NCBI GenBank assembly: GCA_965223505.1
Contig: CBDCWP010000021.1
Coordinates: 64,001 to 128,000 of the forward strand
DNA from: Planctomycetota bacterium
GTDB taxonomy: Bacteria; Planctomycetota; PLA2; JAEUHO01
Length of the DNA stretch: 64,000 nt
Direction: 5' to 3'
Shown here in pieces: positions 17,446 to 37,525 of this stretch (position 1 is the first letter of the stretch; each line of letters begins with the position of its first letter). Below the pieces are notes generated by a model, which did not search any database, was not told the origin of the DNA, and was given only the letters and a program-made list of their open reading frames with translations. The translations under genes and the position numbers were made by a program.

Positions 17446-17747
17446 GGTCCCTATACCCAGGCAGTGTCTCGCCTCGGATGCAGGGTCGGACGAGACACGG
17501 CAGGAACCCGGCTCCGTCAAGGGGGTTTGAGTGCCTGTCAATCGGTTCGAATACAGATACAGGTGGGACCGACGGCACCCTGGTGTCGATAGACCTGGAG
17601 GTTTCGTGCCTCTTCGCGGCCGGCGGCCTCGAAACGCGCGCAGCCGCCCAATCTCAGGTCGTCGACGGGCGTCTCGCGGAGGGCATCCTCCCGCTGCGCA
17701 AGCCGGGCAGTTCGCTCGGGTGTTCTGGATTCGTTCGTACGACACCC
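17446..17747 (+). promoter_or_regulatory. Putative structured leader upstream of DUF1800 operon 2
   Basis: Nested pairings GGTCCC/GGGACC, CAGGCA/TGCCTG, GTGTCTCG/CGAGACAC and AACCC/GGGTT, a hairpin at ~17585-17666, and GGGTGT/ACACCC just before the RBS. Confidence 0.3.
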
Positions 17748-17770
17748 TGATCTCGAACGGAGGCCACCCA

Positions 17771-19657: not shown

Positions 19658-19682
19658 GCGCGCAACAAGAAAGGCAAGACTC

Positions 19683-20999
19683 ATGTGCAACCACAAGAAG
19701 AAGCACTCAAAGACGCGCGCCCGCCTGACCCGTCGCGACGTCGTTCGCTACGGCATCGCGGCAGGCGCCGGGATCGCTGCACTGGGACCGTTCGGCGGCA
19801 GGCTGCTGCCGAAGGCGACCGGTACGCCGCTTCCGAACCACCGGCGCTGCGTCGTCCTCTACTGCTACGGCGGGTACGACGGCCTCAACATGCTGGTGCC
19901 CACGGCTGGCGAGGCGGTCACGCCGTACACGAACCTGCGGCCCACGATCGCGATCACGAGCGGCACGCACGCGCTCAACGGGATCGCCAACTTCGAGCTC
20001 AACCCGAATCTCGACAACATGGCTGCGCTCTACAACCAGGGCGACGGCGCGATCTTCCAGAAGGTCGGCTACCCGAGCCAGAATCTCAGCCACTTCACGA
20101 GCCAGGACATCTACAGTGAAGGCGTGCGCAACGGCTTCGGCGGACTCCCGATTCAGGAGAGCGGCTGGATCGCGCGCTTTGCCGACCTGTACGCCCCCAC
20201 GCCCTTGGGCGCCGTGTCCGTGGGCGTCGGCAAACCGCTCGACTTCGTCGGTGGAACGTCGAACCCGTTCCTCGTGGATAGTCTCAACGGATTCGAGTTC
20301 GACGTCGACGGCGACTACCCGGCGAACCACCAGCATCGCCTCTCGGCCGTTCAGGACATCCTGAGCGGGTACACGGGCGGATCGTTGGACGAGGACGCCG
20401 CGACCGCGCTGGAACAAGGACTCGCGCTGACAGTGGACATCCAGGACGCGGTAGACAACTTCACGCCGCCGGCCGGCCAGCAGTACCCGAACAGCTCGCC
20501 GGGACGCTACATGAAGGACATCGCGACCCTGATCCAGCACGGAACGGAGACGCGGATGTTCTTCACCGGCTTCAGTGGCTGGGACACGCACGGCAACGAG
20601 ATCGCCGGCATGAACAACCGCTGCACCCGCCTCGACGACGCCGTCGGCGCGTTCGCGGGACACATGCAGGAGATGGGCCTGTGGGATGACACCCTCATCC
20701 TCGTGGTTTCCGAGTTCGGCCGGCGCAACTTCGAGAACGGCTCGTTCGGCACCGACCACGGACACGGCAACTGCTTTTTCGCGTTCGGCGGGACGGTGAA
20801 CTCCGGCTACTACGGCAACGAGCTGACCGCGGCGGAGCTGACGCTCCCGAACAACAACTGGCTGGGATACGACATCGACTTCCGTGACATCTACAAAGAG
20901 ATGATCGACGATCACTTCGCCGGTCTGGGCACGAACTCGAGCTTGATCTTCCCCGAGCCGCAAGACATCAACACGAACCTCAACTACATCACTCCGTAG
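19683..20999 (+). CDS. DUF1501-family protein with Tat signal (copy 2)
   Basis: [33 protein letters not shown] and GTDHGHG. Confidence 0.9.
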   Translation: MCNHKKKHSKTRARLTRRDVVRYGIAAGAGIAALGPFGGRLLPKATGTPLPNHRRCVVLYCYGGYDGLNMLVPTAGEAVTPYTNLRPTIAITSGTHALNGIANFELNPNLDNMAALYNQGDGAIFQKVGYPSQNLSHFTSQDIYSEGVRNGFGGLPIQESGWIARFADLYAPTPLGAVSVGVGKPLDFVGGTSNPFLVDSLNGFEFDVDGDYPANHQHRLSAVQDILSGYTGGSLDEDAATALEQGLALTVDIQDAVDNFTPPAGQQYPNSSPGRYMKDIATLIQHGTETRMFFTGFSGWDTHGNEIAGMNNRCTRLDDAVGAFAGHMQEMGLWDDTLILVVSEFGRRNFENGSFGTDHGHGNCFFAFGGTVNSGYYGNELTAAELTLPNNNWLGYDIDFRDIYKEMIDDHFAGLGTNSSLIFPEPQDINTNLNYITP

Positions 21000-21132
21000 C
21001 TGTGTTCGATCGGTTCCGCCGGCGTGTACCGGCGCCGGCGGAGCCATGACGGTTCGCGTCCCCGCAGCGAATCGTCGTCTCCCGAAGCGGGTATATCGAA
21101 CCGACCTCCACGTACGAAGGGTCGAACCTCGC

Positions 21133-22641
21133 ATGGCCGCACGAATCCCGAACCTCCGCCCGATCCGGCCGGGCTTGCGCGCCGCCCTCTCGGCGGCCGC
21201 ACTGCTCTCCCTCGTCGCCGCTTGCGGCGGCGGGGGGGGCGATGCCGCGCCGACGACGGCGCCCGCGAACCTCACCTACGACGTCGATCCCGGCCTCTAC
21301 CGCGCCGGGGAACCGATCACCGACAACAACGCGTCTACGACCGGAGGCGCGCCGACGAGCTTCACCGTGAACCCGCCGCTGCCGAGCGGGCTCGTTCTCA
21401 ATGCCGTCACAGGCACCATCGGCGGCACGCCGACCGTCGAGACGCCGGGCGCGGCGTACACGGTCACGGCCGCCAACAGCGCGGGCCAGACACAGACGGA
21501 CGTCACGCTCGCGATCGGCAAGCCGCTCCCCGGGAGCTTCGTGAGCTTGAAGGAGGGCTTCGAGGTCGAGTGCGTCCTCACGGGCCTGAACAAGGGTGCG
21601 CGGATCGCACTGTTGCCCGACGGACGCATCCTCTACACCGAGGTGAGCCTGGGCCGCGTGCGCGTCATCGACGCCAACGGCACGTTGCAGCCGGCGCCCT
21701 ATCTCGATCTGCTCTCGTTCCAGCTCGGAGGCGCGACCGTCGACCTGCTGCAGGGCTCGCACCAGGGGCTGCTCGGCCTCGCGATCGCGCCGGACTTCAA
21801 CGCGTCCGGACACGTCTTCGTGAGCCTCACCATCGGCGAGCAGGGGCAGCCGGACCGGATGGCCGTGTTGCGCTTCACGGACGATCCGACGCCGAACGCC
21901 AACCAGGGCACCGACATGCAGGTGGTGCTGGACGACCTCCCGACGGCGGACACGAACTGCGGCGGCGAACTGTTGTTCGAGCCCGATCCCGGCGGCGTCT
22001 ACGCGACGGACCGCATGTGGGTGAGCGTCGGCGATGCGGAGAACTCGCTGAACGCGCAGGCGCCGATCGCGACCACGCCCGCGGGCAAGATCCTGCGCAT
22101 CATCCCGACGACGCCCGCGACCTTGCCGCCGGAGAACACGTCGGGCACGCTCCAGTACGCGAACGGCTGCCGCGCGATCTTCGGCATGGGCACGCATCCG
22201 ACGCTCGGCGGCCTGTTCGTGGGCGACAACGGCGGCATGGACCTGGTCAACGGCCACGACATGCTGGACGAGGTCAACTACGTCATCGAAGGAAACAACT
22301 ACGGCTGGGGCTCCGGCGCCGGCGGCAACCCGTTGAAGGTCAAGGAGTGGACGAACGTGACCGTCGTCCCGGCAGGGCTCACCTTCCACACGGGCGCTGC
22401 GTTCTCGACGACGGTCCCCCCCACCGACAGCCTGTTCGTAACGGCACACCTCACGCGCGAGATCTTCCGATTCGTGATGTCCGGCGTAGCACGCACCGAC
22501 GTGGACCTCGAGGAGGTTTGGGCGCAAATGACGCTCAATCCCAACGACAACCCGCTCGACATCGTCGTCGACCCCGTGACGGACGACCTCTACGTCATCA
22601 CGTTCGGCGACATCTGGAGGATCAGCGCGATCACGCCGTGA
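21133..22641 (+). CDS. Lipoprotein with Ig domain + GSDH-like beta-propeller (copy 2)
   Basis: VAA-C-GGGGG, LPSGLVLNAVTGTIGGTP, LPDGRIL, GLLGLAIAPDF, GKILRI and DEVN. The start could alternatively be 21046. Confidence 0.85.
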   Translation: MAARIPNLRPIRPGLRAALSAAALLSLVAACGGGGGDAAPTTAPANLTYDVDPGLYRAGEPITDNNASTTGGAPTSFTVNPPLPSGLVLNAVTGTIGGTPTVETPGAAYTVTAANSAGQTQTDVTLAIGKPLPGSFVSLKEGFEVECVLTGLNKGARIALLPDGRILYTEVSLGRVRVIDANGTLQPAPYLDLLSFQLGGATVDLLQGSHQGLLGLAIAPDFNASGHVFVSLTIGEQGQPDRMAVLRFTDDPTPNANQGTDMQVVLDDLPTADTNCGGELLFEPDPGGVYATDRMWVSVGDAENSLNAQAPIATTPAGKILRIIPTTPATLPPENTSGTLQYANGCRAIFGMGTHPTLGGLFVGDNGGMDLVNGHDMLDEVNYVIEGNNYGWGSGAGGNPLKVKEWTNVTVVPAGLTFHTGAAFSTTVPPTDSLFVTAHLTREIFRFVMSGVARTDVDLEEVWAQMTLNPNDNPLDIVVDPVTDDLYVITFGDIWRISAITP

Positions 22642-22685: not shown

Positions 22686-24500
22686 ATGCGACCTGGAGCC
22701 ATGCGCATCTTCACAGCGCTCTTGGCGCTGATGCTCGCCGCATGCGGTGGCGGCGGCGGCGCCGCCGGACCGACGCCGGATGCGCCCACCAACCTGAGCT
22801 ACGACGACGCGAATCCCACGTATCGCACCGACGCGCCGATCGTGCCTAACAGCCCCTCGACGCTGGGCGGGACGCCGACGTCCTATACCGTCAACCCGCC
22901 GCTGCCCGCAGGCCTGGTCCTGAACCCCGCTACGGGCGTGGTGTCGGGCTCGCCCTCGTCGGCCGCGCCCGCCGCGCCCTACACGCTCACGGCCGCCAAT
23001 GCCGGCGGGTCGACCGATACCGTCGTGACGATCGAGGTCAAGTGGGCGACGTTCAAGTCGATCGAGCCGCACGCGGGGCACACGGACGACGACATTCGCC
23101 ACTTCCTGAAGCGGACGAACTTCGGGTACGAGGTCGACAAGCACGCCGAGATCACGAGCAACGGCTTCGACACGTACCTCGACGGCATCCTCGACATGAC
23201 GCCGAACGCGGCGCTCGAGAACGCCGCGCGGCAGGCGTATTTGGTCGATCTAGACGACCCCAACGGCGAAGCGCCGACGCAGGCCGACCTGGCACGTTGG
23301 TTGATCTACCTCATCCAGAACAACCCCAACGCGTTCCAGGAAGTGCTGGGCATGCACTGGCACGACCACTTCGCGGCGTCGTCGTCCGTCCTCGACGGGT
23401 TCAACAGCCGCTTTTTCGTGGATCACATCAACCTGTGGCGCCACGCGGGGGCCGGCGACCTGCGGCAGCTGCTCATCGACATGGCGCGCGACCCGGCGAT
23501 GCTCGTCTGGCTCAACGGCATCGACAACATCGCGCTCGAACCCAACGAAAACTTCGCTCGGGAGTACTTCGAGCTGTACTGCTTCGGCGTCGGCAACGGC
23601 TACACGGAGAACGACATCCAGGAAGCGGCGCGCGCGCTGACCGGGTATCGCTACCAGTTCAACCCGAACACGCAGCTCGTCGACGTGATCTTCAACCCGT
23701 TCTTTCACGACACGACCGACAAGACCGTGCTGGGAACGGTCATCCCCGGGCAGAGCCTCACCGACGACTACGAAGCGTTGGTGGACATCACGCTCGCGGA
23801 GCTCGATCCGGTCAGCGGCGTCCCGCGGGCGGCGCTTTGGATCACGCGGCAGACGCTTCGACGCTTCGTGATGGACGCGCCGTCCGCCGTGCTGGTCGAG
23901 CAGCTCGCGGCCGTGCTCGCCGCCAACTGGGACCTGACCGAGATGCTTCGGACGATGCTGCGTTCGGAAGCGTTCTTTTCGACCGTCGCCAAGACGGGCT
24001 TCGTGAAGACGCCGGTCGAGCACCTGATGGGGTTCATCCGCTCGACGAAGATCACGTGGGATCCCGCCACGATGGACTTTTTCTTCACGTTCATGGGGAA
24101 CCGACCGACGCAGCCGCCCACGGTCGACGGGTGGCCGGAAGGAACCCAGTGGTTGTCGGCACAGGGCATGGTCGACCGCGCCAACGCGCTCCGCTTTCTG
24201 ATCAGCGACCGCAACCACCAGACGACCAACAACGTGGATCTCACGCAGCTGATCGCGCCGCCCACGCCGCCGGCGACCAAGCCCACCGCGGAGGAGGTGC
24301 TCGACTTCCTCGCGAACCGACTGAGCGTGACGCTCGCGCCTTCGGAGCGTACGCAGATGCTCGATTACATGAACACGGATCTGGTCGGCGGCAACGTCGT
24401 CCCGGATCCGTTCGACGCGGACGACGTCGTCCACCTCGACCAACGAATGCGCGGCGTGCTGTACATGCTCGGACAGCACCCGTCGTACGTGCTCCGCTAG
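22686..24500 (+). CDS. DUF1800-family lipoprotein with Ig domain (copy 3)
   Basis: AAGGAGG RBS, LAA-C-GGGGG, HWHDHFA, ARDPAMLVWLNG, PNENFAREYFEL, DIQEAARALTG, KTPVEH and HPSY. Confidence 0.9.
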   Translation: MRPGAMRIFTALLALMLAACGGGGGAAGPTPDAPTNLSYDDANPTYRTDAPIVPNSPSTLGGTPTSYTVNPPLPAGLVLNPATGVVSGSPSSAAPAAPYTLTAANAGGSTDTVVTIEVKWATFKSIEPHAGHTDDDIRHFLKRTNFGYEVDKHAEITSNGFDTYLDGILDMTPNAALENAARQAYLVDLDDPNGEAPTQADLARWLIYLIQNNPNAFQEVLGMHWHDHFAASSSVLDGFNSRFFVDHINLWRHAGAGDLRQLLIDMARDPAMLVWLNGIDNIALEPNENFAREYFELYCFGVGNGYTENDIQEAARALTGYRYQFNPNTQLVDVIFNPFFHDTTDKTVLGTVIPGQSLTDDYEALVDITLAELDPVSGVPRAALWITRQTLRRFVMDAPSAVLVEQLAAVLAANWDLTEMLRTMLRSEAFFSTVAKTGFVKTPVEHLMGFIRSTKITWDPATMDFFFTFMGNRPTQPPTVDGWPEGTQWLSAQGMVDRANALRFLISDRNHQTTNNVDLTQLIAPPTPPATKPTAEEVLDFLANRLSVTLAPSERTQMLDYMNTDLVGGNVVPDPFDADDVVHLDQRMRGVLYMLGQHPSYVLR

Positions 24501-24511
24501 GGAAACTCGGC

Positions 24512-25831
24512 ATGTGCCAACGACATCGACGCAAGCAACGGACGCCCGGCCGGGTCTCCCGGCGTGACGTGATCCGCTACGGCCTCGCCGGCGCCGGCAT
24601 CGCCGCGCTGGGACCGCTCGGCCGGTCCATGATGCCCGCGGCGCAAGGCGCGCCGCTCCCCAATCACAAGCGGTTGGTCGTCATCAACTGCTACGGCGGC
24701 TACGACGGGCTGAACATGATGCCGATCACGGCCGGCCCCGCTGCGCAGGCGTACCAGGATCGCCGGCCGGCCATCGGCATCGACCCGCTGGACGCCTTGC
24801 CGCTCAACGGCGTCAGCGACTACGGCCTGCACCCCAACCTCGCCAACCTCCAGACGCTGTTCAACGCCGGCGAGGTGGCGACGTTCCAGAAGATCGGCTA
24901 TCCCACGGAGGATCTCAGCCACTTCGTCAGCCAGGACATCTACAGCTTCGGCGTACGCGGCTCCTTCGGGCCGCTCGGGATTCCGGCGAGCGGTTGGATC
25001 GCGCGTTACGCGGAGCTCTACGCACCCACGCCGCTCGGCGCGTGCGCCATCGGCGTCGGCCTTCCGCTCGACTTCGAAGGCGGAAGCTCGAATCCGTTGA
25101 CGCTGTTCAACTTGACGTCGTTCCAGTTCTTCGCGGACGGTGCGTACCCGGCGAACAGCCAGCACCAGCTCGACACGATGGACGCGCTGTTGAACGGCTA
25201 CAGCGGCACGCCGCTCTCCGAGTCGGCCGCGCTGGCCGAGCAGCAGGGTCATCAGCTCAGCAACGACATCCAGGACGCGCTGCAAAACTCGGCATCGCCA
25301 CAGGCGGCGAACTACCCGGCGTCGTCGCCGGGTACGTTTCTCAAGGACGTCGCCAACCTCATCAACCACGGCACGGAGACGGAGGTCTTCTTCACCGGCT
25401 TCAACGGCTGGGACACGCACGCCGCGCAGACCAACCAGAACAATGCGAACACAGGGACGATGGCCAACCTGATCACGCGGCTCGACGGCGCCGTCGGCGT
25501 TTTCGCGCAGGATCTCAAGGACATGGGCGTCTGGAACGACACGGTCGTACTGATCGTGACCGAGTTCGGGCGTCGCAACTTCGAGAATGGGTCGTTCGGC
25601 ACCGATCACGGCCACGGCAACACGTTCTTCGCCACCGGCGGCCCGGTGATCGGCGGGTACTACGGACCGCAGCTCGCCGAGGCGGACCTGCTGCAGAACT
25701 ACCTCGACTACGAGATCGACTTCCGCGACGTCTACAAGGAAGCGCTGTCGAGGCACCTGGGCGTCGATGACGCACCCGTCTTCCCCGAACCGCTCGAGAA
25801 GAACAACACGCTCAACTATCTGCCGGTGTAG
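24512..25831 (+). CDS. DUF1501-family protein with Tat signal (copy 3)
   Basis: [33 protein letters not shown] and GTDHGHG. Confidence 0.9.
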
Positions 25832-28616
25832 CGACGGCATCGACGACGCGGTGCAGTTCCTTGATCGAGATCGGCTTGGAGATGTACTCGTCCATGCCGG
25901 CCTCGATGCAGCGCTCCCGGTCGCCTTGCATGGAATGCGCGGTCATCGCGATGATCGGAATCTCCGGGGATGCCGGCGTTTCGCCGGCGCGAATCCGGTG
26001 GGTCACCTCGAAGCCGTCGATCCCGGGCATCTGAACGTCCATTAGGATCAGGTCGAAGTGCCCTGAGCCGAGCAGCTCGATCGCGGCCTCGCCGGACTCG
26101 GCAATCGCGACGTCGTGACCACGCTTGTGAAGCATGTGTTGTGCGACGGCGGAGTTGACGGGATTGTCCTCGACCAGCAGCACACGCAGCGTGGGGCCGC
26201 GCTCGGGCTCGCCGTTGTCGTGGTTCGTGACGGCGGGGGACGCGGCACCCATCGCGAGTTGGATCTCGTCGAGAAGCTCGGACGGGTTGACGGGCTTGAG
26301 GAGCTGCGATCGGTAGCCGAGTTCCTTCGCGCGGTGCATCCCGCCGGGGTACGAGCCGGAGCTGAGCAGGATCAGCTCGACGTTCGGGATCGAGCCGTCG
26401 CCGTGCAGGGCCTCGGCGAACATGAAGCCGTCGGCCTTGGGCATGTGGAAGTCCACGATCGCCATGCGGATCGGATCGTCGGTGTCCGCGGCGGCACGCA
26501 GCCGATCCAGGCCGGCCTCCGCGCCCGCGACGGAGACGGGCCGCAGCCCCCAGCGCTGCAACAGACGCTCGAGCACCATCCGATTGGTTTCGTTGTCGTC
26601 CACGATCAGTACCGGCAGTCCGCGCAGGTTCGCGGGCGGCCGGTCGAAAATCGGAAGCGCCGCCTCGGGCGCGAGGCCCACCGGGATCACGAAGTGGAAC
26701 GTGCTGCCCTTGCCCACCTCGCTCTCCACCCAGATGCGACCTCCCATGAGATCGACGAGCCGCGCGGAGATGGCGAGCCCCAGACCGGTGCCCCCGTACT
26801 GTCGCGTCGTCGACGCATCCGCCTGCGCAAAGGCCTCGAAGATGTGCTCGACCTTCTCGGGGGGAATGCCGACACCGGTATCCCGGACCTGGAAGTGCAG
26901 TTCGACGCGATCCGCCCTGAGCGGCCCCTCGGGCTCCACGTGCACGACGACCTCGCCGTCCTTCGTGAACTTGACCGCATTGCCGACGAGATTGACGAGG
27001 ATCTGACGAATGCGAGCGACGTCTCCGACGACGCCGTCCGGCACTTGCGTTGCGACGTCCCAGGCCAGCTCGAGTCCCTTGTCGGACGCGCGTACGCCGA
27101 GGACCTGCAGCGTTCGGCCGATGAAGTCGCGCAGGCTGAACGGACGCGGGTCGAGCTCGAGCTTGCGGGCCTCGATCTTGGAGAAGTCGAGGATGTCGTT
27201 CAGCACCGTCATCAGCGCGTCGGCGGAGTACTTCACGGCATCGAGGTACTGACGCTGCTCGGCGGTGAGCTGCGTGTCGAGGGCGAGCTCGGTCATCCCG
27301 AGAACGCCGTTCATGGGCGTGCGCACCTCGTGACTCATGTTCGCGAGGAACTCGCTCTTGGCCCGCGTCGCGGCCTCGGCGTGCTCCTTGGCTTCGACGA
27401 GCTGGGCCTGCGCGCTCTCCAGCGCCCCGGCCATGTGGTTGAAGCGTTCGCCGAGATCGTAGAGCTCATCCTTGCCGTCGATCTCCACACGGGCAGACAG
27501 ATCGCCCTCGCCGACGGCCGTGGCCGCGCGGCCCAGCCGCCCGATTCGCCTCGTGAGCGCGTGCGCGATCAGCCACCCGAACGCGAGCGCGAGCAAGGTC
27601 GCCAATCCCGCCGTGATGATCGTCGTCCTGCGCAGCTCGTCGATGGGCCCGAAGACGTGGTCCTGATCCCATTCCCAGAGGAGGATCCAGCCCAGCCCGC
27701 CGAAGCTCTCGTGCCCGCGGGATCGCGCGAAGGCTGAGAGCACCTCACGACCGCCTCGCGTGTGCTCGGCTACGAGCACGTCGCTCTCGCCTCCGAACGC
27801 GACGCCCTCGAAGAACACCGGCGCCTCGCGCGGCTCGCCGATCGGCTCGTCGCTGATGTGAATGAGCAACCGGTTGCCGCTGAACAGCGCTACGCGGCCG
27901 CCGGCCAGCCCCTGCGCGCGTTCGTTGATGAGCTCGATGACGTCGTGGATGTTGAGGACCGCCTTCAGGACGCCGGCGAACGCGCCGTCGGCATCCGTCA
28001 GTCGAACGCAGACGTCGCAGGAGTAGATCCCGGCGCTGTCGTCGAACTGGACGTCGCCGACGTAGACCCCCTCCTCCTTGGCCGTGTCCCACCACGTCTC
28101 GCCCTTCTGCATGAAGTCCGACGTTCGATGCGTCTGCGCGACGTTCGCGCCGTACCGATTGGTGAGGAAGACCTCACCGAAAACGGGATATCCGCGCGCG
28201 TTGCTCAGCTTCCGGAGGCGCAGCCGCATGTCGGCGGAGAGAGGGTCGGCGATCAGCTCCCTCATGAGCGGTGTCTCGCCCGGCGACGCCTGCCAGCGCT
28301 CGTCCTGATCACGAATGTACGCATCCACGTCGTCGAGACGGGCGAATGCGGCGTGCGAGCTCTTCAGCGCGTCGCGCACGGGACTGCTGTCCGCGTAGGC
28401 CTCCCACTCGCGGACCCAGCCGGCCATGTCGCGGTCGATCTCGCTCATCAAGGCGCGCACCTGCATCTTGGACGATTTCTCGATCGCCTCGCGCAGGCTC
28501 GCCTCGCCGGACGACGATGCGTAGAACGCCGTCCCCCAGATCAGAACGACGGGCAGCAGGGCCCCCAGGATGAGCTTTGTAGCGATCCGCACGGCGGCAC
28601 AGATACTAGCCCGCAT
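25812..28616 (-). CDS. Hybrid sensor histidine kinase (Cache-like sensor, HAMP, HisKA, HATPase, two receiver domains)
   Basis: Two TM helices, [42 protein letters not shown], and receivers VLIVDDN and VLLVEDN...LMDVQMP...KP. The start could be GTG 28592. Confidence 0.95.
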
Positions 28617-28747
28617 GGTTCATGAACTGGCGCTGAAGTCGTGCGGTTCTCGCCCGCCTTTCTGCCCGGTCTCCTCGCGCAGAACCGCCGCTCGGCGACC
28701 GAACGTCTTCGCCCCCCGGTGCTCGCGCCGGAATCTCACAAGGGGAT

Positions 28748-31045
28748 CTACTGCGCGGGCGAGCCCTCCGGCTGCGCGGCGGATCCTGCGAAGCTCCGGT
28801 CGACCACCACCTCCGGTCGTGCCCCTTTCACGTGTTTCCAGCGAGAGATCATGAACCAAGCGATCGGCACGACGCCGCCGAACGTGAAGATCCACCCGCC
28901 GACCGCACGCATCCAGGTCAGCGTCTGGAAGGTGGAGCCTCCGATGAAATCCGCCGACCTTGCGGACGCGTATCCGTCCTCGAGCACTACGCCGAGTTGC
29001 ACGAGACCGACCGGCAGCGTATCGAGGAGCAGCATCAGCATCAGTCCGATGTTGAGCGCCCAGAACGAGGACCTCAGCGTTCCAGCCCCCCACTTGCCTT
29101 CCGGCAACAGGAACCGTGCGCAGAACAAGCTGACTCCGATCGCCAGGTTGCCGTATACGCCCATCAACGCAGCGTGACCGTGATTCACCGTCAGGTACGT
29201 GCCGTGCTCGTAGTAGTTGACGATGGGAAGATTGATGATGAGGCCGAAGACGCCCGCGCCGAGGAAGTTCCAGAAGTTCACGCCGATGAGGAACAGGAAT
29301 GCGACGTCCTGCCCGAAGCGCGCGCGGTTACCAGGGTTCTTCGCGGTAGCGAGCGCGCGCGCGGGCATTCGTCGGAACTTCCATGCATCGAGTGTGAGCA
29401 GGATCAACGGAAGGACCTGCAGCGTGGAGAAAACACTGCCCAAAGCGAGCATCGAGACCGGCTTTGCGTTCCAGTAGAAGTTGTGGGCAATGCCCAGCAG
29501 GCCGGATCCCAAGAAAAGCAGCGTCGCGATGTAGCAGGCCCGGACCGCGCGCTGCTTGCTCACAAGCCCCATGAAGACGAGGAAGAACGCGACGATCACC
29601 GTCGTGAAGACCTCGAAGAAACCCTCGACCCACATGTGAATCACGGCCCAACGCCAGAAGTCCGCAATCACGAAGTTCGTCTTTGGTCCCGAGATGAACC
29701 CGGAGATGAAGAGCACGAGCACGGAGCACACGGTGAACACCAGAAGCCACGGAAGCGAAAGCGGGCCCATGCGCCGAATGGCCGGCTTCGCACCTCGGTA
29801 GAGAATCAACAACCACAGCGCGATGGCGACGAACAGCAGCCCCTGCCATGCGCGGCCGAATTCGACGAACTCCCATCCTTGATGACCCAGCATGCGCCAA
29901 TAGCCCTGCATGACGCCCTTGGGTCCCAGAACGATGCCGACGAGACTGCCCACGACGAGCACGATGACGAGCCAGAACAGGGAGCGCACGAGCAGCATCT
30001 GCTTCGGGGGTTCCTCGCCGGAGATCTTCGGCAACAGGAAGATCGAAGCGCCCATCCAGCAAGCGCTGATCCAGAACAGCGCCAACGCCAAGTGCAGGCT
30101 CCGCGTGATCGTCACCGGCAGCCACACCGCGATGTCGATCCCGAAGAAGACGGTCGCGCCCAGAAAGTCGTGCGCGACGAGCGCGCCGAAGAGGACTTGA
30201 ACCAAGAACAGCACGGACGCGACCGCCATGAACGGATAGGCGGCTCGCTGAGTGGGAGTCGGCGTGGACTTCGCGACGCCGTCGTCGGTCAGGACGTCGG
30301 ACTTGTCACTCACGTCCCAACCGGCGGTTCGTCCGGCCCGACCGTAGCCGTAGAGGACGAACCCGACACCGAGGATGAACCCGAGGATGCCGATCACGCT
30401 CCAGAGTGTCGTGGGCGCGCTGGGCTGATTGCCGGCCTCGGGATCGAACGGCCAGTTGTGCGTGTAGCTGTAGTCGTAGCCGGGCCGTCGAGCACCGCAA
30501 ACCCATGCTCCCCAATAGAAGAACGCAGCGAGGTCGGACAGCTCCCGCTCGTCGGTGATGTAGCCTGCCGGCTCGAATCCCCCGTCGCCCTCGTCCGTGA
30601 AGAACCAGGCGACGTGGCCCGCGTAGATTCCGTACGCATGCACGTCCGCCGCCGAAAGCGTCACGACGTTCCTCTCGGCGTCTAGCGTGTTGTTCTTGAT
30701 CTCGCGTTGAACCCGCAACGCGACGACATCCTCGTCCACGCCGCTCTCGCGCGCGTAGTACGCCCGCATGTACTGCGCGCGGCGACGAAGCGCATCCGCA
30801 GTGAAGTCCGGCCCGCGACCGGATCCGTCGCCGAAGTAGGAACCGTACTCCATCAACGCGCGCTGCAAGAACACGGCCTGGCCGGCGAGGATCTTCTCTT
30901 CGTCGAACAGCACGGCCCCGTCCGGCCCCTCGAACCTGGCCATTGGCGGCGCGTCCTGATAGGTGCGCGTCGCCATCCAAGCGAGACCCGCGCCCCCGGT
31001 CACGATCACGACGAAGAGCGGGATCCACCAATGACGTTTCTTCAT
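28748..31045 (-). CDS. nod: qNOR (NorZ)-family heme-copper oxidoreductase with nitric oxide dismutase (Nod)-type active-site substitutions
   Basis: GGAGG RBS before ATG 31045 (765 aa). GPDFTADAL, YSYTHNWP, GWEFVEFGR, FWRWAVIHMWVEGFFEVF, GIAHNFYWNAKP, FSTLQVLPL, NYYEHGTYLTVNHGHAALMGVYG. Confidence 0.85.
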   Translation of the reverse strand: MKKRHWWIPLFVVIVTGGAGLAWMATRTYQDAPPMARFEGPDGAVLFDEEKILAGQAVFLQRALMEYGSYFGDGSGRGPDFTADALRRRAQYMRAYYARESGVDEDVVALRVQREIKNNTLDAERNVVTLSAADVHAYGIYAGHVAWFFTDEGDGGFEPAGYITDERELSDLAAFFYWGAWVCGARRPGYDYSYTHNWPFDPEAGNQPSAPTTLWSVIGILGFILGVGFVLYGYGRAGRTAGWDVSDKSDVLTDDGVAKSTPTPTQRAAYPFMAVASVLFLVQVLFGALVAHDFLGATVFFGIDIAVWLPVTITRSLHLALALFWISACWMGASIFLLPKISGEEPPKQMLLVRSLFWLVIVLVVGSLVGIVLGPKGVMQGYWRMLGHQGWEFVEFGRAWQGLLFVAIALWLLILYRGAKPAIRRMGPLSLPWLLVFTVCSVLVLFISGFISGPKTNFVIADFWRWAVIHMWVEGFFEVFTTVIVAFFLVFMGLVSKQRAVRACYIATLLFLGSGLLGIAHNFYWNAKPVSMLALGSVFSTLQVLPLILLTLDAWKFRRMPARALATAKNPGNRARFGQDVAFLFLIGVNFWNFLGAGVFGLIINLPIVNYYEHGTYLTVNHGHAALMGVYGNLAIGVSLFCARFLLPEGKWGAGTLRSSFWALNIGLMLMLLLDTLPVGLVQLGVVLEDGYASARSADFIGGSTFQTLTWMRAVGGWIFTFGGVVPIAWFMISRWKHVKGARPEVVVDRSFAGSAAQPEGSPAQ

Positions 31046-31232
31046 TGGTCCTCCATCCAACTGACACGTCGCTGAAACCCGAGCGCGCAAACCCGGTCGC
31101 GCACGTGAACGCCGGAATTCCGACCTTTCCGATGTCGCTGGGGGTACGTACGCAGTATCGAACGGACGGCGTGGAATCGTCCGCAATCGGGCAGTCCTCC
31201 GTGGAGCCGTCGTTTTCAGCGAGACTGCGCGC

Positions 31233-33857
31233 ATGCGTACGAAGCCGCGCCCATTGATCCTCCGAGACGGCACGTCGCTGCTCGTTCGGCCGGCGGAGCC
31301 GGCGGATACGGAAGCCTTCGACGCGTTCATCGACCGCATGGCGGTCGAGCGTTCGACGACCGGCTGCGACGCGTCGAATCCTTCGGAGCAGTTCTGCTTG
31401 CTGGCGCTCCGCACGCTCGACGGCGCGCAACGGGTGGTCGGCGCGGCGGAGTACGTCGTCACCGACGACGGATGCGCGAACGCGGCCCTCGGCGTCGACG
31501 AGGCGTTCAGAGGGCTCGGACTCGCGACCGGGCTCCTGCGTCGTTTGGCGCTCACGGCCGCGCATCACGACGTGCGCGTGCTGCGGGCGCGGTCCGGCAG
31601 CGCCGCGCTGCTCGAGGTGCTACGCAATTCGGGCGTCCCGCAGCTCGACACCGCCGAGGCGGGCACGGTCTCGTTCGATCTCGGCGCCGTGCCGACGCCG
31701 CAGAGTCGCGAGCAGTCGGAGACGCGGGATCGCCTCGCGACCGCGGCGTCGATCCATCCGTTCTTCCATCCGACCGCCGTCGCCGTGATCGGCGCGTCGC
31801 GTGACCCGAAGAGCCTCGGGGCGCGAACGCTGCGCGCGCTCGTGAAAAACCGCTTCCGTGGTCCGGTCTACGCCGTGAACCCGAAAGCCGACTCCATCGG
31901 CGCGATGCCGTGCTTCCCGTCCGTTGCCGCTCTGCCGCGCGAGGTCGAGCTGGCAATCGTCCTCGTCCCCAAGGAGCACGTGCTCGGCGTCGTCGACGAG
32001 TGCGCGGCGGCAGGCGTGCGAGCGGTGGTCGTCATCACGGCGGGGTTCGCGGAGACCGGTGACGAGGGTCGCGCGCGTCAAGAGGCGCTGCTTCAGCGGG
32101 TGCGCGGACACGGCATGCGCATGGTCGGTCCGAACTGCATGGGGCTGATCAACGCCGATCCCGCCGTACGGCTGTGCGCCTCGTTCGCGCCCGTGTTCCC
32201 GCCGTCCGGCAACGTCGCCATGTCGTCCCAGAGCGGTGCGCTCGGGTTGGCGCTGTTGGCGGCGGCCGAAGAGCTCGGCCTCGGACTGTCGAGCTTCGTG
32301 AGCGTGGGCAACAAGGCCGACGTCTCCGGCAACGATCTCTTGCAGTACTGGGAAGACGACCCACAGACCGACGTGATCCTGCTCTACGTCGAGTCGTTCG
32401 GAAACCCCCGCCGCTTCGCGCGCATCGCTCGGCGCATCGGACGCCACAAGCCCATCATCGCGGTGAAGAGCGGCCGCACCGGGGCGGGGCAGCGAGCCGC
32501 GGGCTCACACACGGCCGCGCTGGCGGGGAGCGACACGCCTGTGCAGGCACTGTTCCGTCAGACGGGCGTCATCCGCGCGAACACGTTGGAAGAGATGTTC
32601 GACCTCGCCCTGCTGTTGAGCAGCCAGCCGCTGCCCAACGGCCGCCGCGTCGGGATCCTGACCAACGCGGGCGGCCCCGGGATCCTCTGCGCGGATGCGT
32701 GCGCATCCGAAGGCATGACGGTGCCGGAACTGTCCGAGGGCACGCGCTCGAAGTTGAGTGCGTTGCTGCCCGAGGAAGCGAGCGTCACGAACCCGGTCGA
32801 CATGATCGCCTCGGCGGGACCGATCCAGTACGCCGAGGCCACGCGCATCCTGCTGGAGAGCGACGAGGTCGACGCGCTGATGATCATCTACGCGCCCATC
32901 GAGGCCTCGGACGTCGAGCCGGTCGAGCGCGCCCTCGACGCGGTGCTCGAGTCGACCGGCCGAACCAAGCCCGTCGTCGAGTGCGTCATGGGCGAAGGCG
33001 GTCGCGGACCGTCGCGGAGTCTTCGCAAAGGCGTGCCGTCGTACGTGTTCCCCGAAGCCGCGGCGCGCGTGCTCACCAAGGTCGCCGACTATGCGGCGTG
33101 GCAGCGGGCGCCGGTCGGCGTGGTGCCGCCCCACGACGACTTCGACGCCAAGGCGGCGCGCGCGGTGTGCCGAAAGGCGCTCGAGCGGGACGGCGCGGGC
33201 TGGCTCACGTTCGATGACGCCCAGGCCGTCCTGCGTGCCGCGGGACTTCCCGTGGCCGACGGCGGGTCGGCGAAGAGCACGGATGAGGCCGTCGAGCTGG
33301 CGGAGCGACTCGGCTACCCGGTCGCCATGAAGCTCGCGTCGCGAACGATCGTGCACAAGACCGACGTCGGCGGCGTCGAGCTCGACGTGGCGAACGCCGA
33401 CGCGGTGCGTGCCGCCTTCACGCGCATCCGCGAGCGCGTTCACGAGGCCGGCGAGGCCGACGCCTTCGAAGGCGTCTCGCTGCAGGTCATGATCGACCGC
33501 GGCACGGAGGTCATGGTGGGCATGACCCAGGCCCCGGTGTTCGGTCCGGTGGTCGCGTTCGGCCTCGGCGGCGTGCACGTGGAGGTGCTCAAGGACGTCG
33601 TGTTCCGCGTGACGCCGCTCACGGACCGCGACGCGCACGAGATGGTGCGGGACATTCGGGGGCGGCGGCTGCTGGAAGGCTACCGCGGCCATCCGAAGGC
33701 CGACCTCGCGGCGCTCGAGGACGTGCTGTTGCGCATCGGCAAGCTGGCGGATCAGATCGAGGAGATCGACGACCTGGATCTGAACCCGATCTTCGCGCTC
33801 GAGCCGGGCGAAGGCTGCCGCATCGCGGATGCGCGAATTCACGTCCGACAGGCCTGA
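31233..33857 (+). CDS. GNAT + NDP-forming acyl-CoA synthetase fusion (Pat/Pka-like or acetate-CoA ligase family)
   Basis: N-terminal FRGLGLAT (GNAT motif A), VAVIGASR, GPNCMG, SQSGAL, GNKADVSGNDLL, SHTAAL, NPVD, and a C-terminal ATP-grasp (HKTDVGGV, DLNP). Confidence 0.9.
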   Translation: MRTKPRPLILRDGTSLLVRPAEPADTEAFDAFIDRMAVERSTTGCDASNPSEQFCLLALRTLDGAQRVVGAAEYVVTDDGCANAALGVDEAFRGLGLATGLLRRLALTAAHHDVRVLRARSGSAALLEVLRNSGVPQLDTAEAGTVSFDLGAVPTPQSREQSETRDRLATAASIHPFFHPTAVAVIGASRDPKSLGARTLRALVKNRFRGPVYAVNPKADSIGAMPCFPSVAALPREVELAIVLVPKEHVLGVVDECAAAGVRAVVVITAGFAETGDEGRARQEALLQRVRGHGMRMVGPNCMGLINADPAVRLCASFAPVFPPSGNVAMSSQSGALGLALLAAAEELGLGLSSFVSVGNKADVSGNDLLQYWEDDPQTDVILLYVESFGNPRRFARIARRIGRHKPIIAVKSGRTGAGQRAAGSHTAALAGSDTPVQALFRQTGVIRANTLEEMFDLALLLSSQPLPNGRRVGILTNAGGPGILCADACASEGMTVPELSEGTRSKLSALLPEEASVTNPVDMIASAGPIQYAEATRILLESDEVDALMIIYAPIEASDVEPVERALDAVLESTGRTKPVVECVMGEGGRGPSRSLRKGVPSYVFPEAAARVLTKVADYAAWQRAPVGVVPPHDDFDAKAARAVCRKALERDGAGWLTFDDAQAVLRAAGLPVADGGSAKSTDEAVELAERLGYPVAMKLASRTIVHKTDVGGVELDVANADAVRAAFTRIRERVHEAGEADAFEGVSLQVMIDRGTEVMVGMTQAPVFGPVVAFGLGGVHVEVLKDVVFRVTPLTDRDAHEMVRDIRGRRLLEGYRGHPKADLAALEDVLLRIGKLADQIEEIDDLDLNPIFALEPGEGCRIADARIHVRQA

Positions 33858-35671: not shown

Positions 35672-37525
35672 ATGCGGCGATCCGGCACCCTGTGGACACG
35701 ACGCCTGGTTCTCGGAGCCCTGATTCTCGGGGCCTGCGGCCTGATCCCGGCCCTGCGGGCCGACGCGGGCGGCGACGACGGCGAGGTCTCGAACCTGCGC
35801 GGCGAGCGCAAGCTGGCTCTCATCGAGATCGGACGGCGGCTCTTCTTCGATCCCGTCGTCAGCCGCTCGGGCGACCGCTCGTGCGCCTCGTGCCACGATC
35901 CCGAGCACGGCTTCTCCGACCCCGCGCAACGGAGCGAGGACGACGCCGGCATCACCATCCGTCACGCTCAGACCCTGCTCGACAGCGCGCTCAACCCGTC
36001 CGCCCACTGGGACGGCGAGTTCATCTCCATCGAGCGCCTCGTCACCGCGCGAATCGGACTGCCCGGCGCCGGCGGTAGCGGCGGCGGCTACGGCGGACGC
36101 AACCTCGCGCCGCTTCGCGCCGGCCACTCCGCGATCCCGTTCGACCAGGACCTCGACGCCCCCATCGATCCCGGCGGCAAGCTGGCCGCCGAGCTCGGCA
36201 AGCTCCCGCGCGCGCAAGACGTGCTCGAGGACAACGGGCGCTACGCCGCGGCGGCGAAGGCCGTCTGGGGCGACATGAAGATCACGCGGCCGCGCATCGC
36301 GCAGGCCATCGGCGCGTACTGCCGCACGATCGAGAGCACCGAAGCGCCGTACGACGAGTACGTCGCCGGCAACACCCGCGCTCTCACGCCCGCCGCCATT
36401 CGCGGCAAGGAGCTCTTCGAAGGACGCGCCGGCTGCGCCCAGTGCCATCTCACGACGACCAAGTTCGAAAAGCGCCACGCGACGACGCGTCTCACGAAAC
36501 CCGTCATGCGCAAGGTGAAGCGCGCGACCTTCACCGACTTCGACTTCCACAACACGGGCATCGCCTGGGACGACGTGCACGCGTCGCGCATCCGCCGGCA
36601 GGTCGCCGAGGAGCTTGCGCCGAAGCAGCGCAAGGGCAAGCGGCTCGAAGAAGCGACGGCCGCGGCCAAGGACAAGCTCGGGGACCCGGGCAACCACCGC
36701 ATCAGCACCAACCCGAAGCTTCGCCGCGCCTTCAAGACGCCGACGCTGCGCGATCTCACACGCCGCGGGCCGTACATGCACAACGGCGCGTTCACGAACC
36801 TGCACGACGTCGTGCGACACTACGTGAAGGGTGGGAGCGACGATCCGCTGCAGGACGAGCGCATCGTCCCGCTCGCGCTGAGCGAAGGCGAGATCGACGA
36901 CCTGGTCACCTTCCTCGAGTCCCTCACCGGTCACGAGCGTCCCGGCCTGGCACAGCATCCGTGCAAGTGGCGTCCGGATACGACGAAGCTGCGGTTCCTC
37001 GACGGCACGGGCAAACCCATGGCGGGGCTGAGCGTGAAGCTCAACCCGGCCGGCGACCGGCTTCCGAACGAGAAGGCCGGCAAGACGGCCGTCGAGCTCG
37101 TCACGGACGACAAGGGGCGCATCGAGTTCGCCCCGCTCGCGTTCACGCACGTACAGATCCAGCTGCCGAACGAGATCGAGCCCGCCCGAGGACCGCTCGT
37201 CCCGGACCTGTGCAAGAAGGCCGACATCATCGTGCCCGTCAGCGGGCGCATCCAACTGATCGCGGTCTACCCCGAAGGGCAGGAGCCGCCGAAGCGCCTG
37301 GTCGCCGAACACAAGGGCACCTTCGTGCTGCCGGGGCACACGCCCCCGCGGACGCGACTGGTGCTCAAGCACGTCCTGGGCGCGGGCAAGAGCCGAATGG
37401 CCACGTACGAGGGGTGGAAGCGCACCGACGTCACGTCGGACGTCCGGATCCTGCTCCCCGGGGCCAAGAAGCCGGTCGACGTCGATCTCGCGGCGAAGGG
37501 CGGAGCCCGCATCGACGTCAGGTGA
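35672..37525 (+). CDS. Di-heme cytochrome c peroxidase / MauG-family protein with C-terminal extension
   Basis: Signal peptide, GRRLFFDP, CASCH, HWDG, GKELF, CAQCH, FHNTG, FKTPTLR, PYMHNG and DLVTFLESL. Confidence 0.9.
   Translation: MRRSGTLWTRRLVLGALILGACGLIPALRADAGGDDGEVSNLRGERKLALIEIGRRLFFDPVVSRSGDRSCASCHDPEHGFSDPAQRSEDDAGITIRHAQTLLDSALNPSAHWDGEFISIERLVTARIGLPGAGGSGGGYGGRNLAPLRAGHSAIPFDQDLDAPIDPGGKLAAELGKLPRAQDVLEDNGRYAAAAKAVWGDMKITRPRIAQAIGAYCRTIESTEAPYDEYVAGNTRALTPAAIRGKELFEGRAGCAQCHLTTTKFEKRHATTRLTKPVMRKVKRATFTDFDFHNTGIAWDDVHASRIRRQVAEELAPKQRKGKRLEEATAAAKDKLGDPGNHRISTNPKLRRAFKTPTLRDLTRRGPYMHNGAFTNLHDVVRHYVKGGSDDPLQDERIVPLALSEGEIDDLVTFLESLTGHERPGLAQHPCKWRPDTTKLRFLDGTGKPMAGLSVKLNPAGDRLPNEKAGKTAVELVTDDKGRIEFAPLAFTHVQIQLPNEIEPARGPLVPDLCKKADIIVPVSGRIQLIAVYPEGQEPPKRLVAEHKGTFVLPGHTPPRTRLVLKHVLGAGKSRMATYEGWKRTDVTSDVRILLPGAKKPVDVDLAAKGGARIDVR

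What the first reader, a model, noticed from the sequence alone, without database searches (positions are those of the whole stretch)
28748..31045. Putative nitric oxide dismutase (Nod)-type qNOR in a non-NC10-looking genome
Seen in the sequence: H470-MWV-E474 is intact, but the FeB ligand pair reads H521-N522 (GIAHNFYW, codons 29485-29480) instead of HH, and the proton-channel Glu reads Q543 (STLQVLPL, 29419-29417) instead of SALEV. The spacing from H470 (51 and 73 residues) equals that of H508/H559-H560/E581 in Geobacillus qNOR. These two swaps are the established signature of the proposed O2-generating NO dismutases of Methylomirabilis oxyfera. The quinol-site His is kept (AHDF), as in the intermediate 'unknown qNOR' group, so dismutase activity is not established. 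No nitrite reductase or oxygenase lies in this window.
Basis: partly seen in the sequence, partly recalled or inferred. Interest (0 to 1): 0.8.

Follow-up and report, generated by a model that had tools for sequence, protein, structure and literature searches.

The report
Nod-type NO enzyme in nitrate-respiring planctomycete
This gene encodes a relative of bacterial nitric oxide reductase with the two active-site swaps of the published but never purified "NO dismutase" family; in this planctomycete it likely removes toxic NO during nitrate respiration rather than making oxygen for methane or hydrocarbon attack, so it is one more member of a widespread family.

Summary
Observation confirmed. 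The 765-aa protein has Asn522 and Gln543 at Geobacillus qNOR His560 and Glu581.

It is 42% identical to M. oxyfera Nod. It falls with the H-to-N (NOD) proteins, apart from canonical qNOR, in the broad Planctomycetota/Bacteroidota branch rather than the NC10 branch. That branch is in print: NOD in 16 phyla, 38 Planctomycetota species (Ruff 2024). This scan found such genes before on other DNA.

The host, a Planctomycetota genome 92% complete, has Nar, Nap and four O2 reductases, but no nirS, nirK, nosZ or methane monooxygenase match. In its class, all 6 NOD-type carriers of 40 genomes have narG, and none of the 40 has nirS or nirK. Two relatives carry a NOD gene at the end of a nar-ACIII-RIC cluster.

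Best reading: an NO sink for nitrate respiration, probably reducing NO to N2O (0.5). Dismutation to N2 and O2 remains open (0.33). New member of a known, uncharacterised family.

The parts
28748..31045 (-). Gene for a 765-aa qNOR-family (COX1 + NorB cytochrome-c-like domain) enzyme of the NOD family, broad Planctomycetota/Bacteroidota branch
   Evidence: AlphaFold2 model pLDDT 90.8, mostly helical
31049..31054 (-). Shine-Dalgarno-like GGAGGA before the ATG at 31045
30167..30172 (-). His292-Asp293: quinol-site His (=His328) kept; Asp293 replaces the Tyr typical of qNOR and is conserved in both NOD branches
   Evidence: His in 109/120 of this branch, 0 among the four commonest letters of 117 NC10-type; Asp 114/120 and 111/117
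30092..30094 (-). His318, haem b ligand (=His355)
29624..29638 (-). His470-x3-Glu474, first non-haem metal ligand and catalytic Glu (=His508, Glu512), intact
29480..29485 (-). His521-Asn522: FeB ligand pair with the His560-to-Asn swap that defines NOD
29417..29419 (-). Gln543 in place of proton-donor Glu581
29174..29182 (-). His622-x-His624, haem ligands (=His651, His653)
28895..28915 (-). Trp711-x-Arg713-x3-Gly717: outer quinol-site Trp and Arg kept (=AxqNOR Trp718, Arg720); quinol-binding Asp746 lost

Best explanation
The gene encodes a two-haem, qNOR-family membrane enzyme of the published NOD family, which likely serves as the nitric-oxide sink of a nitrate-respiring planctomycete, probably by reducing NO to N2O with electrons from a remodelled quinol site. 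Shown: the residues, the family placement, and a genome with NarGHI, NapAB and four O2 reductases but no detected nirS, nirK, nosZ or siroheme nitrite reductase. Inferred step 1: under nitrate respiration nitrite builds up and NO arises as a side product of NarG (documented for E. coli, PMC6805990) or diffuses in from neighbours. Inferred step 2: NO binds at haem b3 and a non-haem metal held by His470, His521 and Asn522. Inferred step 3, the least sure: quinol still docks at the Trp711/Arg713/His292 face and passes electrons through haem b, giving N2O, perhaps slowly because Gln543 cannot donate a proton.
For: (a) Both haem b ligands, the haem b3 ligand, Glu392/395/474/478 and Arg713 are invariant in the 120 closest homologues; His292 is kept in 109 and Trp711 in 116. 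AxqNOR Trp718 is a quinol-binding, electron-entry residue whose loss costs about 85% of activity (PMC13087809 section 8). (b) No nirS (0 of 40; positive control 4 of 5) or nirK (0 of 40; control rang in 1 of 14) in the host's class, so there is no detected high-flux NO supply for an oxygenic pathway. (c) In the class, 10 of 40 genomes have a qNOR-family gene: 6 NOD-type and 4 canonical, none with both. All 6 NOD-type carriers have narG, against 11 of the other 34. Genus g8 and genus g10 each show narG and NOD together or both absent. (d) In same-family genomes G010 and G011 a NOD-type gene ends one co-directional cluster cytc-narGHJI-narK-actABCDEF-RIC-nod. Canonical qNORs of G014 and G001 have a GAF/sigma-54 NorR-like regulator next to or near them. 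(e) 17 of 80 related loci have an Rrf2 regulator or a RIC/ScdA gene within 6 kb. (f) Papers reach the same suspicion for this branch: PMC5723336, Elbon preprint, PMC13386854.
Against: Each swap would cripple a canonical qNOR. Glu563Ala/Leu in Neisseria qNOR (=Gln543) leave under 10% activity and lose most non-haem iron (PMC13031933; no Gln mutant seen there). Mutating the His/Arg/Asp quinol triad of Persephonella qNOR abolished activity (cited in PMC13087809), and that Asp is Gly here in 119 of 120. The N and Q swaps are shared with the NC10 branch (115 and 116 of 117) and the two branches form one group, which argues for one shared, non-canonical chemistry. The context evidence shows 'NO sink', not 'reductase': a dismutase would fit it too. 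The window's gene is not in the nar cluster and is only 49% identical to the G010/G011 copies. The genome has no RIC or Rrf2 match to the queries used, and no FNR-, NsrR- or sigma-54-like box was found upstream. Kin are not independent, and G020's copy is a fragment classed by similarity only.
Confidence: 0.5

Rival explanations
1. True NO dismutase (2 NO to N2 + O2) used as an electron-free NO sink; the O2 would be respired at once by the cell's cbb3-like and A-type oxidases or used by its Rieske oxygenase.
For: Defining H-to-N and E-to-Q swaps and loss of Asp746/Glu332, as described for Nod in PMC3413370. Groups with M. oxyfera Nod CBE69496.1 apart from qNOR at 100/100 even with the motif columns removed. 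Four O2 reductases and one Rieske oxygenase could consume O2. The link to narG fits any NO sink.
Against: No NOD has been isolated or characterised (PMC13386854, 2026; PMC11549561). Only 42% identity to M. oxyfera Nod, and placement with the Methylomirabilis proteins is rejected (p-AU 0.0002). Quinol-site His kept, unlike the NC10 branch. No nirS/nirK to feed it and no pmo or soluble di-iron monooxygenase match. GC3 0.84 (11th percentile) against 0.93-0.94 for narG and three oxidase genes does not suggest a highly expressed core enzyme (weak).
Confidence: 0.33
2. A different chemistry from either (for example NO to N2O plus O2, NO oxidation under microoxia, or handling of another N-oxide), possibly with a partner such as the DUF1800-DUF1501 pair or the N2Ored-like oxidase.
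For: A conserved new Asp293 and the fixed Asn/Gln point to a rebuilt rather than decayed site. DUF1800-DUF1501 genes lie within 6 kb of NOD in 10 of 80 related loci, 8 of them co-directional and closely spaced. An N2Ored-like gene neighbours NOD in 2 of 80 loci.
Against: No direct evidence for any such reaction. The window's DUF1800/DUF1501 copies are a distant subfamily (23-32% identity), on the opposite strand and 3 kb away, and 38 of 40 class genomes carry DUF1800 anyway. O2 reduction is unlikely without the active-site Tyr (PMC11214002).
Confidence: 0.12
3. An ordinary qNOR with incidental substitutions, or a decaying gene.
For: Best solved-structure hit is Geobacillus qNOR; databases name homologues 'nitric oxide reductase subunit B'. 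One AU test that holds the query on the qNOR side of the tree was not rejected (p 0.19).
Against: ORF intact; N522/Q543 fixed in 120 of 120 homologues; nesting with either of two canonical qNOR subgroups is rejected (p-AU 1.7e-5 and 9e-177). The non-rejected test is also satisfied by a basal position among the NOD proteins.
Confidence: 0.04

Closest known systems
Planctomycetota/Bacteroidota branch of the NOD family ('Planctomycetia-type Nod', Elbon et al. bioRxiv 10.1101/2023.11.21.568154; 'qnorB-like', PMC5723336; 'unknown qNor-related', PMC10286720; NOD set of Ruff et al. PMC11549561)
   Same: H-to-N and E-to-Q swaps; about 40% identity to NC10-type Nod; no functionally related neighbours. 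Five of my related loci (L014, L015, L016, L026, L057; 54-57% identity) carry names that match genera in Ruff's Supplementary Table 1.
   Different: A divergent member: the best database hit is 70%, the rest 58% or less. I could not run the published NOD HMM or assign one of Ruff's four numbered clades.
Putative NO dismutase of Ca. Methylomirabilis oxyfera (CBE69496.1; PMC3413370)
   Same: Same Asn and Gln swaps, same Asp746-to-Gly, same new Asp-Phe after the quinol His position, all haem ligands kept.
   Different: 42% identity; separate branch; quinol His kept here (Glu in M. oxyfera); single copy; host lacks detected nirS and pMMO.
Canonical qNOR (Geobacillus 3AYF/3AYG, Achromobacter 6QQ5/8BGW, Neisseria 6FWF)
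   Same: Same domain layout and length, haem ligands, His508/Glu512 motif, quinol His, Trp718/Arg720 equivalents.
   Different: His560, Glu581, Asp746 and Glu332 replaced; 33-37% identity to two representatives; falls outside the qNOR group in both trees.

Membership tests
NOD family (Murali 2024 / Ruff 2024) | One non-haem-metal His replaced by Asn, other two His kept | tested here: met
   H470, H521, N522; definition
NOD family (Murali 2024 / Ruff 2024) | Glu581 replaced by Gln | tested here: met
   Q543; definition
NOD family (Murali 2024 / Ruff 2024) | Low- and high-spin haem ligands kept | tested here: met
   H318, H622, H624
NOD family (Murali 2024 / Ruff 2024) | Groups with M. oxyfera Nod apart from qNOR | tested here: met
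   SH-aLRT 100 (72 rows); 100/100 with motif columns dropped (28 rows); nesting with two qNOR subgroups rejected. Depth within NOD unresolved. Rooted on qNOR only.
NOD family (Murali 2024 / Ruff 2024) | Scores above the published NOD HMM cut-off | not testable with these tools
   HMM not held; no NCBIfam family matched
NOD family (Murali 2024 / Ruff 2024) | Converts NO to N2 + O2 | not testable with these tools
   Not shown for any member according to PMC13386854
NC10/HdN1-type Nod (strict sense) | Quinol site lost at His328, Glu332 and Phe336 | tested here: not met
   His292 and Phe300 kept; only Glu332 and Asp746 replaced
NC10/HdN1-type Nod (strict sense) | Falls within the NC10-type branch | tested here: not met
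   Outside it in both trees; grouping with Methylomirabilis proteins rejected (p 0.0002); a sister position to the whole NC10-type branch is borderline (p 0.053)
Oxygenic denitrification as in M. oxyfera | Host has an NO-forming nitrite reductase and an O2-dependent substrate-activating monooxygenase | tested here: not met
   No nirS or nirK (control); no AMO/pMMO or di-iron monooxygenase match (no positive control); one Rieske oxygenase; genome 92.5% complete; alkB, P450 and flavin oxygenases not searched
Canonical qNOR | Three His plus Glu512/Glu581 at FeB | tested here: not met
   N522, Q543
Canonical qNOR | His328/Asp746 quinol pair | tested here: not met
   His kept, Asp replaced by Gly717

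The most novel reading that the evidence does not exclude
The enzyme is a genuine NO dismutase that lets a nitrate respirer with no nitrite reductase turn NO from NarG leakage or from neighbours into O2 for its own high-affinity oxidases, a cryptic aerobic loop with no methane or hydrocarbon oxidation. Its quinol site was rebuilt (Asp746 lost, Asp293 gained, His/Trp/Arg kept) to prime the metal centre rather than drive turnover.
Probability: 0.2. Interest if true: 0.8.

Novelty: new member of a known kind. Interest (0 to 1): 0.3.

Why it matters
nod-like genes are used as markers for dark oxygen production, yet no member has been assayed. This case does not settle the chemistry. It adds context from one Planctomycetota class: NOD-type and canonical qNOR genes appear as alternatives, track narG, occur without nirS/nirK, and in two relatives close a nitrate-reductase cluster beside the nitrosative-stress protein RIC. 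That argues against reading every nod hit as oxygenic denitrification. It also points to a His-retaining, single-gene member as a contrast to M. oxyfera Nod for a first enzyme assay.

Tried and rejected
1. MauG partner (lead from e1-2496820): CCP/MauG genes neighbour NOD in 5 of 80 related loci. The window's copy (35672-37525) is 4.6 kb away on the other strand, about 30% identical to them, and is one of five similar-scoring paralogues in the genome; not counted as a partner.
2. DUF1800-DUF1501 partner: not established for this window. The DUF1800 model (pLDDT 78.8) had no PDB match at E<=0.001; the wider structural search was not run.
3. Regulation: no sigma-70-like promoter in 28500-31400. 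No FNR-, NsrR- or sigma-54-like match upstream with consensus patterns recalled from memory; only one trivial GT-N7-AC site.
4. NrfA: three weak PF02335 hits are other multihaem proteins. No siroheme nitrite/sulfite reductase and no Hcp.
5. Expression: no RNA holder listed; no evidence either way.
6. Geometry of Asp293 relative to the lost Asp746 could not be measured because the model's coordinates are not delivered, and the fold search of the NOD model was not obtained.
7. Two AU tests did not reject their alternatives (p 0.053 and 0.19), so the depth of the protein within NOD is unresolved.
8. Zhu et al. 2017 (PMC5288823), recalled as the source of the 'unknown qNor' label, was not held; I rely on PMC10286720 and PMC7338807.
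9. A paper search for a heterologous or purified NOD (30 of 153 listed) showed none. A search for ACIII + NO dismutase + narG gave one paper, on Fe(II) oxidation in Ferrigenium, seen only as listing and abstract start. DUF1800 + DUF1501 gave two papers on other topics. Subscription journals are not covered.
10. The Atlas search for the odd oxidase gave no answer.

Full report
OBSERVATION. window:28748-31045(-) is a clean 765-residue ORF with a Shine-Dalgarno-like GGAGGA before its ATG. Pfam gives COX1 plus the NorB cytochrome-c-like domain; no NCBIfam family matches. The best solved relative is Geobacillus qNOR 3AYF (E 3.9e-150). Against Achromobacter qNOR, Trp718 and Arg720 map to Trp711 and Arg713, both kept. 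An AlphaFold2 model from a 67-row alignment has mean pLDDT 90.8; I could not measure distances in it.

FAMILY. A protein search found 1777 proteins at E<=1e-50 among 8000 scored candidates and listed the best 120. All 120 have N522 and Q543, 119 have G717, 109 keep H292 and 116 keep W711. In genome contigs 515 stretches encode a relative; the best 80 come from Planctomycetota, Bacteroidota, Pseudomonadota, Melainabacteria and others. To get real references I searched with an NC10-like representative and recovered M. oxyfera CBE69496.1. The window protein is 42% identical to it and 33-37% to two canonical qNOR representatives. In 117 NC10-type proteins (the 120 listed, less the query and two under 700 aa) N is 115, Q 116 and G717 116, but the quinol His is mostly Glu or Thr. 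All 16 canonical representatives have His, Glu and Asp. Asp293 is a gain shared by both NOD branches (114/120, 111/117; Tyr in 11 of 16 qNOR).

PHYLOGENY. A 72-row tree that I selected by hand, rooted on qNOR, separates 18 canonical qNORs from 54 NOD-type proteins (SH-aLRT 100). It splits the latter into an NC10-type branch and a broad branch that holds the query. Two same-set rows lack the active-site check only in the sense that the group labels were set from motif windows or search rank. A 28-row tree with the six motif regions removed gives the same (100/100; broad branch 94/97). AU tests reject nesting the query with either of two qNOR subgroups (p 1.7e-5; 9e-177) or with the Methylomirabilis proteins (p 0.0002). 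They do not reject a position as sister to the whole NC10-type branch (p 0.053) or on the qNOR side of the deepest split (p 0.19), which a basal NOD position also satisfies.

HOST AND PATHWAYS. The genome is 5.15 Mb, 92.5% complete. Its 16S rRNA is 90% identical to that of a genome titled Planctomycetota and 78-82% to three others; the fifth gave no match. It has NarGHI with NarK and an alternative complex III, and NapAB. It has six COX1-family genes: two A-type, two cbb3-like, this one, and an odd one. No match for nirS (positive control 4 of 5 genomes), nirK, nosZ (only CuA-domain hits), siroheme nitrite reductase, Hcp or RIC; NrfA hits are weak and belong to other proteins. No AMO/pMMO or soluble di-iron monooxygenase matched, both without a ringing control. 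There is one Rieske oxygenase 49 kb away and one globin. An HAO-like octahaem protein is an untested possible NO source.

CONTEXT IN RELATIVES. Of 40 class genomes (many incomplete), 10 have a qNOR-family gene. Six are NOD-type (G000, G007, G010, G011, G020, G024; G020 is an N-terminal fragment, 68% identical to the G010 copy and 32% to qNOR) and four are canonical (G001, G014, G015, G026); none has both. None of the 40 has nirK or nirS; three have nosZ, none of them NOD carriers. narG is in 17 of 40 (13 over the cut-off): 6 of 6 NOD-type carriers and 11 of 34 others (Fisher p 0.003, overstated because kin are not independent). In G010 and G011 the order cytc-narG-H-J-I-narK-actA-F-RIC-nod runs on one strand. 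Their NOD is 49% identical to the window's and not its sister in the tree, so this is evidence about the branch, not this copy. The canonical qNORs of G014 and G001 have GAF/sigma-54 regulators beside or near them. Among the 80 wider loci, 14 have an Rrf2 gene, 7 a RIC/ScdA gene (17 either), 6 a truncated globin, 5 an HAO-like gene, 5 a MauG-like gene and 10 a DUF1800-DUF1501 pair. The window gene itself sits between a hybrid histidine kinase and a divergent acyl-CoA ligase; the ligase link is seen in 1 of the 80 loci, the closest homologue. GC3 is 0.84 (11th percentile of 2066 genes) against 0.93-0.94 for narG and three oxidase genes.

MECHANISM. The context points to an NO sink tied to nitrate respiration. 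NarG is the main NO source in nitrate-respiring E. coli and associates with YtfE/RIC and NO reductases (PMC6805990, passages); YtfE is described as an NO-forming nitrite reductase of nitrosative stress (PMC12998184, passages). Context cannot tell reduction from dismutation. For reduction: the haem b relay, His292, Trp711 and Arg713 are kept, and Trp718/Arg720 mutants of AxqNOR lose about 85% of activity (PMC13087809, passages and section 8 part 1). For dismutation or other chemistry: Glu563 mutants of NmqNOR keep under 10% activity (PMC13031933, passages), the quinol Asp is gone, and the swaps are shared with the M. oxyfera branch. I put reduction to N2O at 0.5, dismutation at 0.33, other chemistry at 0.12 and ordinary qNOR at 0.04.

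WHAT IS KNOWN. Ettwig 2012 (PMC3413370, passages) defined the swaps and already listed non-NC10 carriers. Murali 2024 (PMC11214002, passages; preprint passages) treats NOD as a family derived from qNOR. Ruff 2024 (PMC11549561, passages, section 6, and 60 of 82 Planctomycetota hits in the supplement) reports at least 16 phyla, 162 genera and four subclades. Its species sheet has 38 Planctomycetota rows, five with names matching my related loci. Elbon (bioRxiv, parts 1-2 of 5) names a Planctomycetia-type Nod without related neighbours and suggests NO detoxification for Rrf2-linked copies. Fuchsman 2017 (PMC5723336, passages) argues that such genes make N2O. PMC10286720 (passages) and PMC7338807 (part 1 of 2) describe the intermediate 'unknown qNor-related' group. 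PMC13386854 (2026; passages and section 21) states that NOD has still not been isolated. PMC6636425 (passages) added nothing. Figures and the Murali SI were not seen and may define the subclades more exactly. I did not find the nar-ACIII-RIC-nod cluster in print (one search). Earlier notes of this scan describe similar genes in 12 genomes.

VERDICT. Real, correctly read, and a new but ordinary member of a published, uncharacterised family. The oxygenic, M. oxyfera-like reading is not favoured by this genome. Interest 0.3.

Noticed in passing
L139/L146 (G010:C27:23231-42697, -) and L140/L147 (G011:C6:49927-69384, +): One co-directional cluster cytc-narGHJI-narK-actABCDEF-RIC(ScdA)-nod in two same-family genomes; the window's genome has the same nar-ACIII cluster on C38 without RIC or nod.
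   Followed up: yes
L128:5995-8204 (-) (G000:C31): A 481-aa haem-copper-family protein lacking the usual first metal-ligand His motif, next to a dihaem cytochrome c; possibly the 'N2O red' family of Murali 2024 (membership not tested). Present in 3 of 40 class genomes, and 32% homologues neighbour NOD in L034 and L035.
   Followed up: partly
window:7392-11783, 17720-22641, 22701-25831; loci L013, L017, L020, L021, L022, L026, L029, L032, L056, L057: Three tandem DUF1800-DUF1501 pairs in the window (two followed by a GSDH-family gene). A DUF1800-DUF1501 pair lies beside NOD in 10 of 80 related loci (9 of 24 Planctomycetota), in several gene orders and from different subfamilies. Function unknown; DUF1800 model has no PDB match.
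   Followed up: partly
window:30167-30169 and 28895-28897: Asp293 is gained and Asp746 lost in both NOD branches, and the outer quinol-site Trp (Trp or Tyr in the NC10 branch) and Arg are kept: the quinol site may be rebuilt rather than lost. Geometry not measured.
   Followed up: partly
window:31233-33857: Acyl-CoA ligase (NDP-forming type, with an unassigned N-terminal extension) divergent from the NOD gene; a 66% identical homologue follows NOD in L010.
   Followed up: partly
L121:1018-6404 (G000:C24): Cluster with an HAO-like octahaem cytochrome and a cytochrome bd subunit I-like gene; the octahaem is 24% identical to the HAO-like proteins beside NOD in 5 loci. Possible non-canonical nitrite reductase.
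   Followed up: no
window:45307-49540: Fused 4Fe-4S/NrfD gene followed by a molybdopterin oxidoreductase of unassigned family.
   Followed up: no
window:58000-63200: About 5 kb with no gene called by the genome-trained codon model and lower GC (0.62-0.64), possibly acquired DNA.
   Followed up: no
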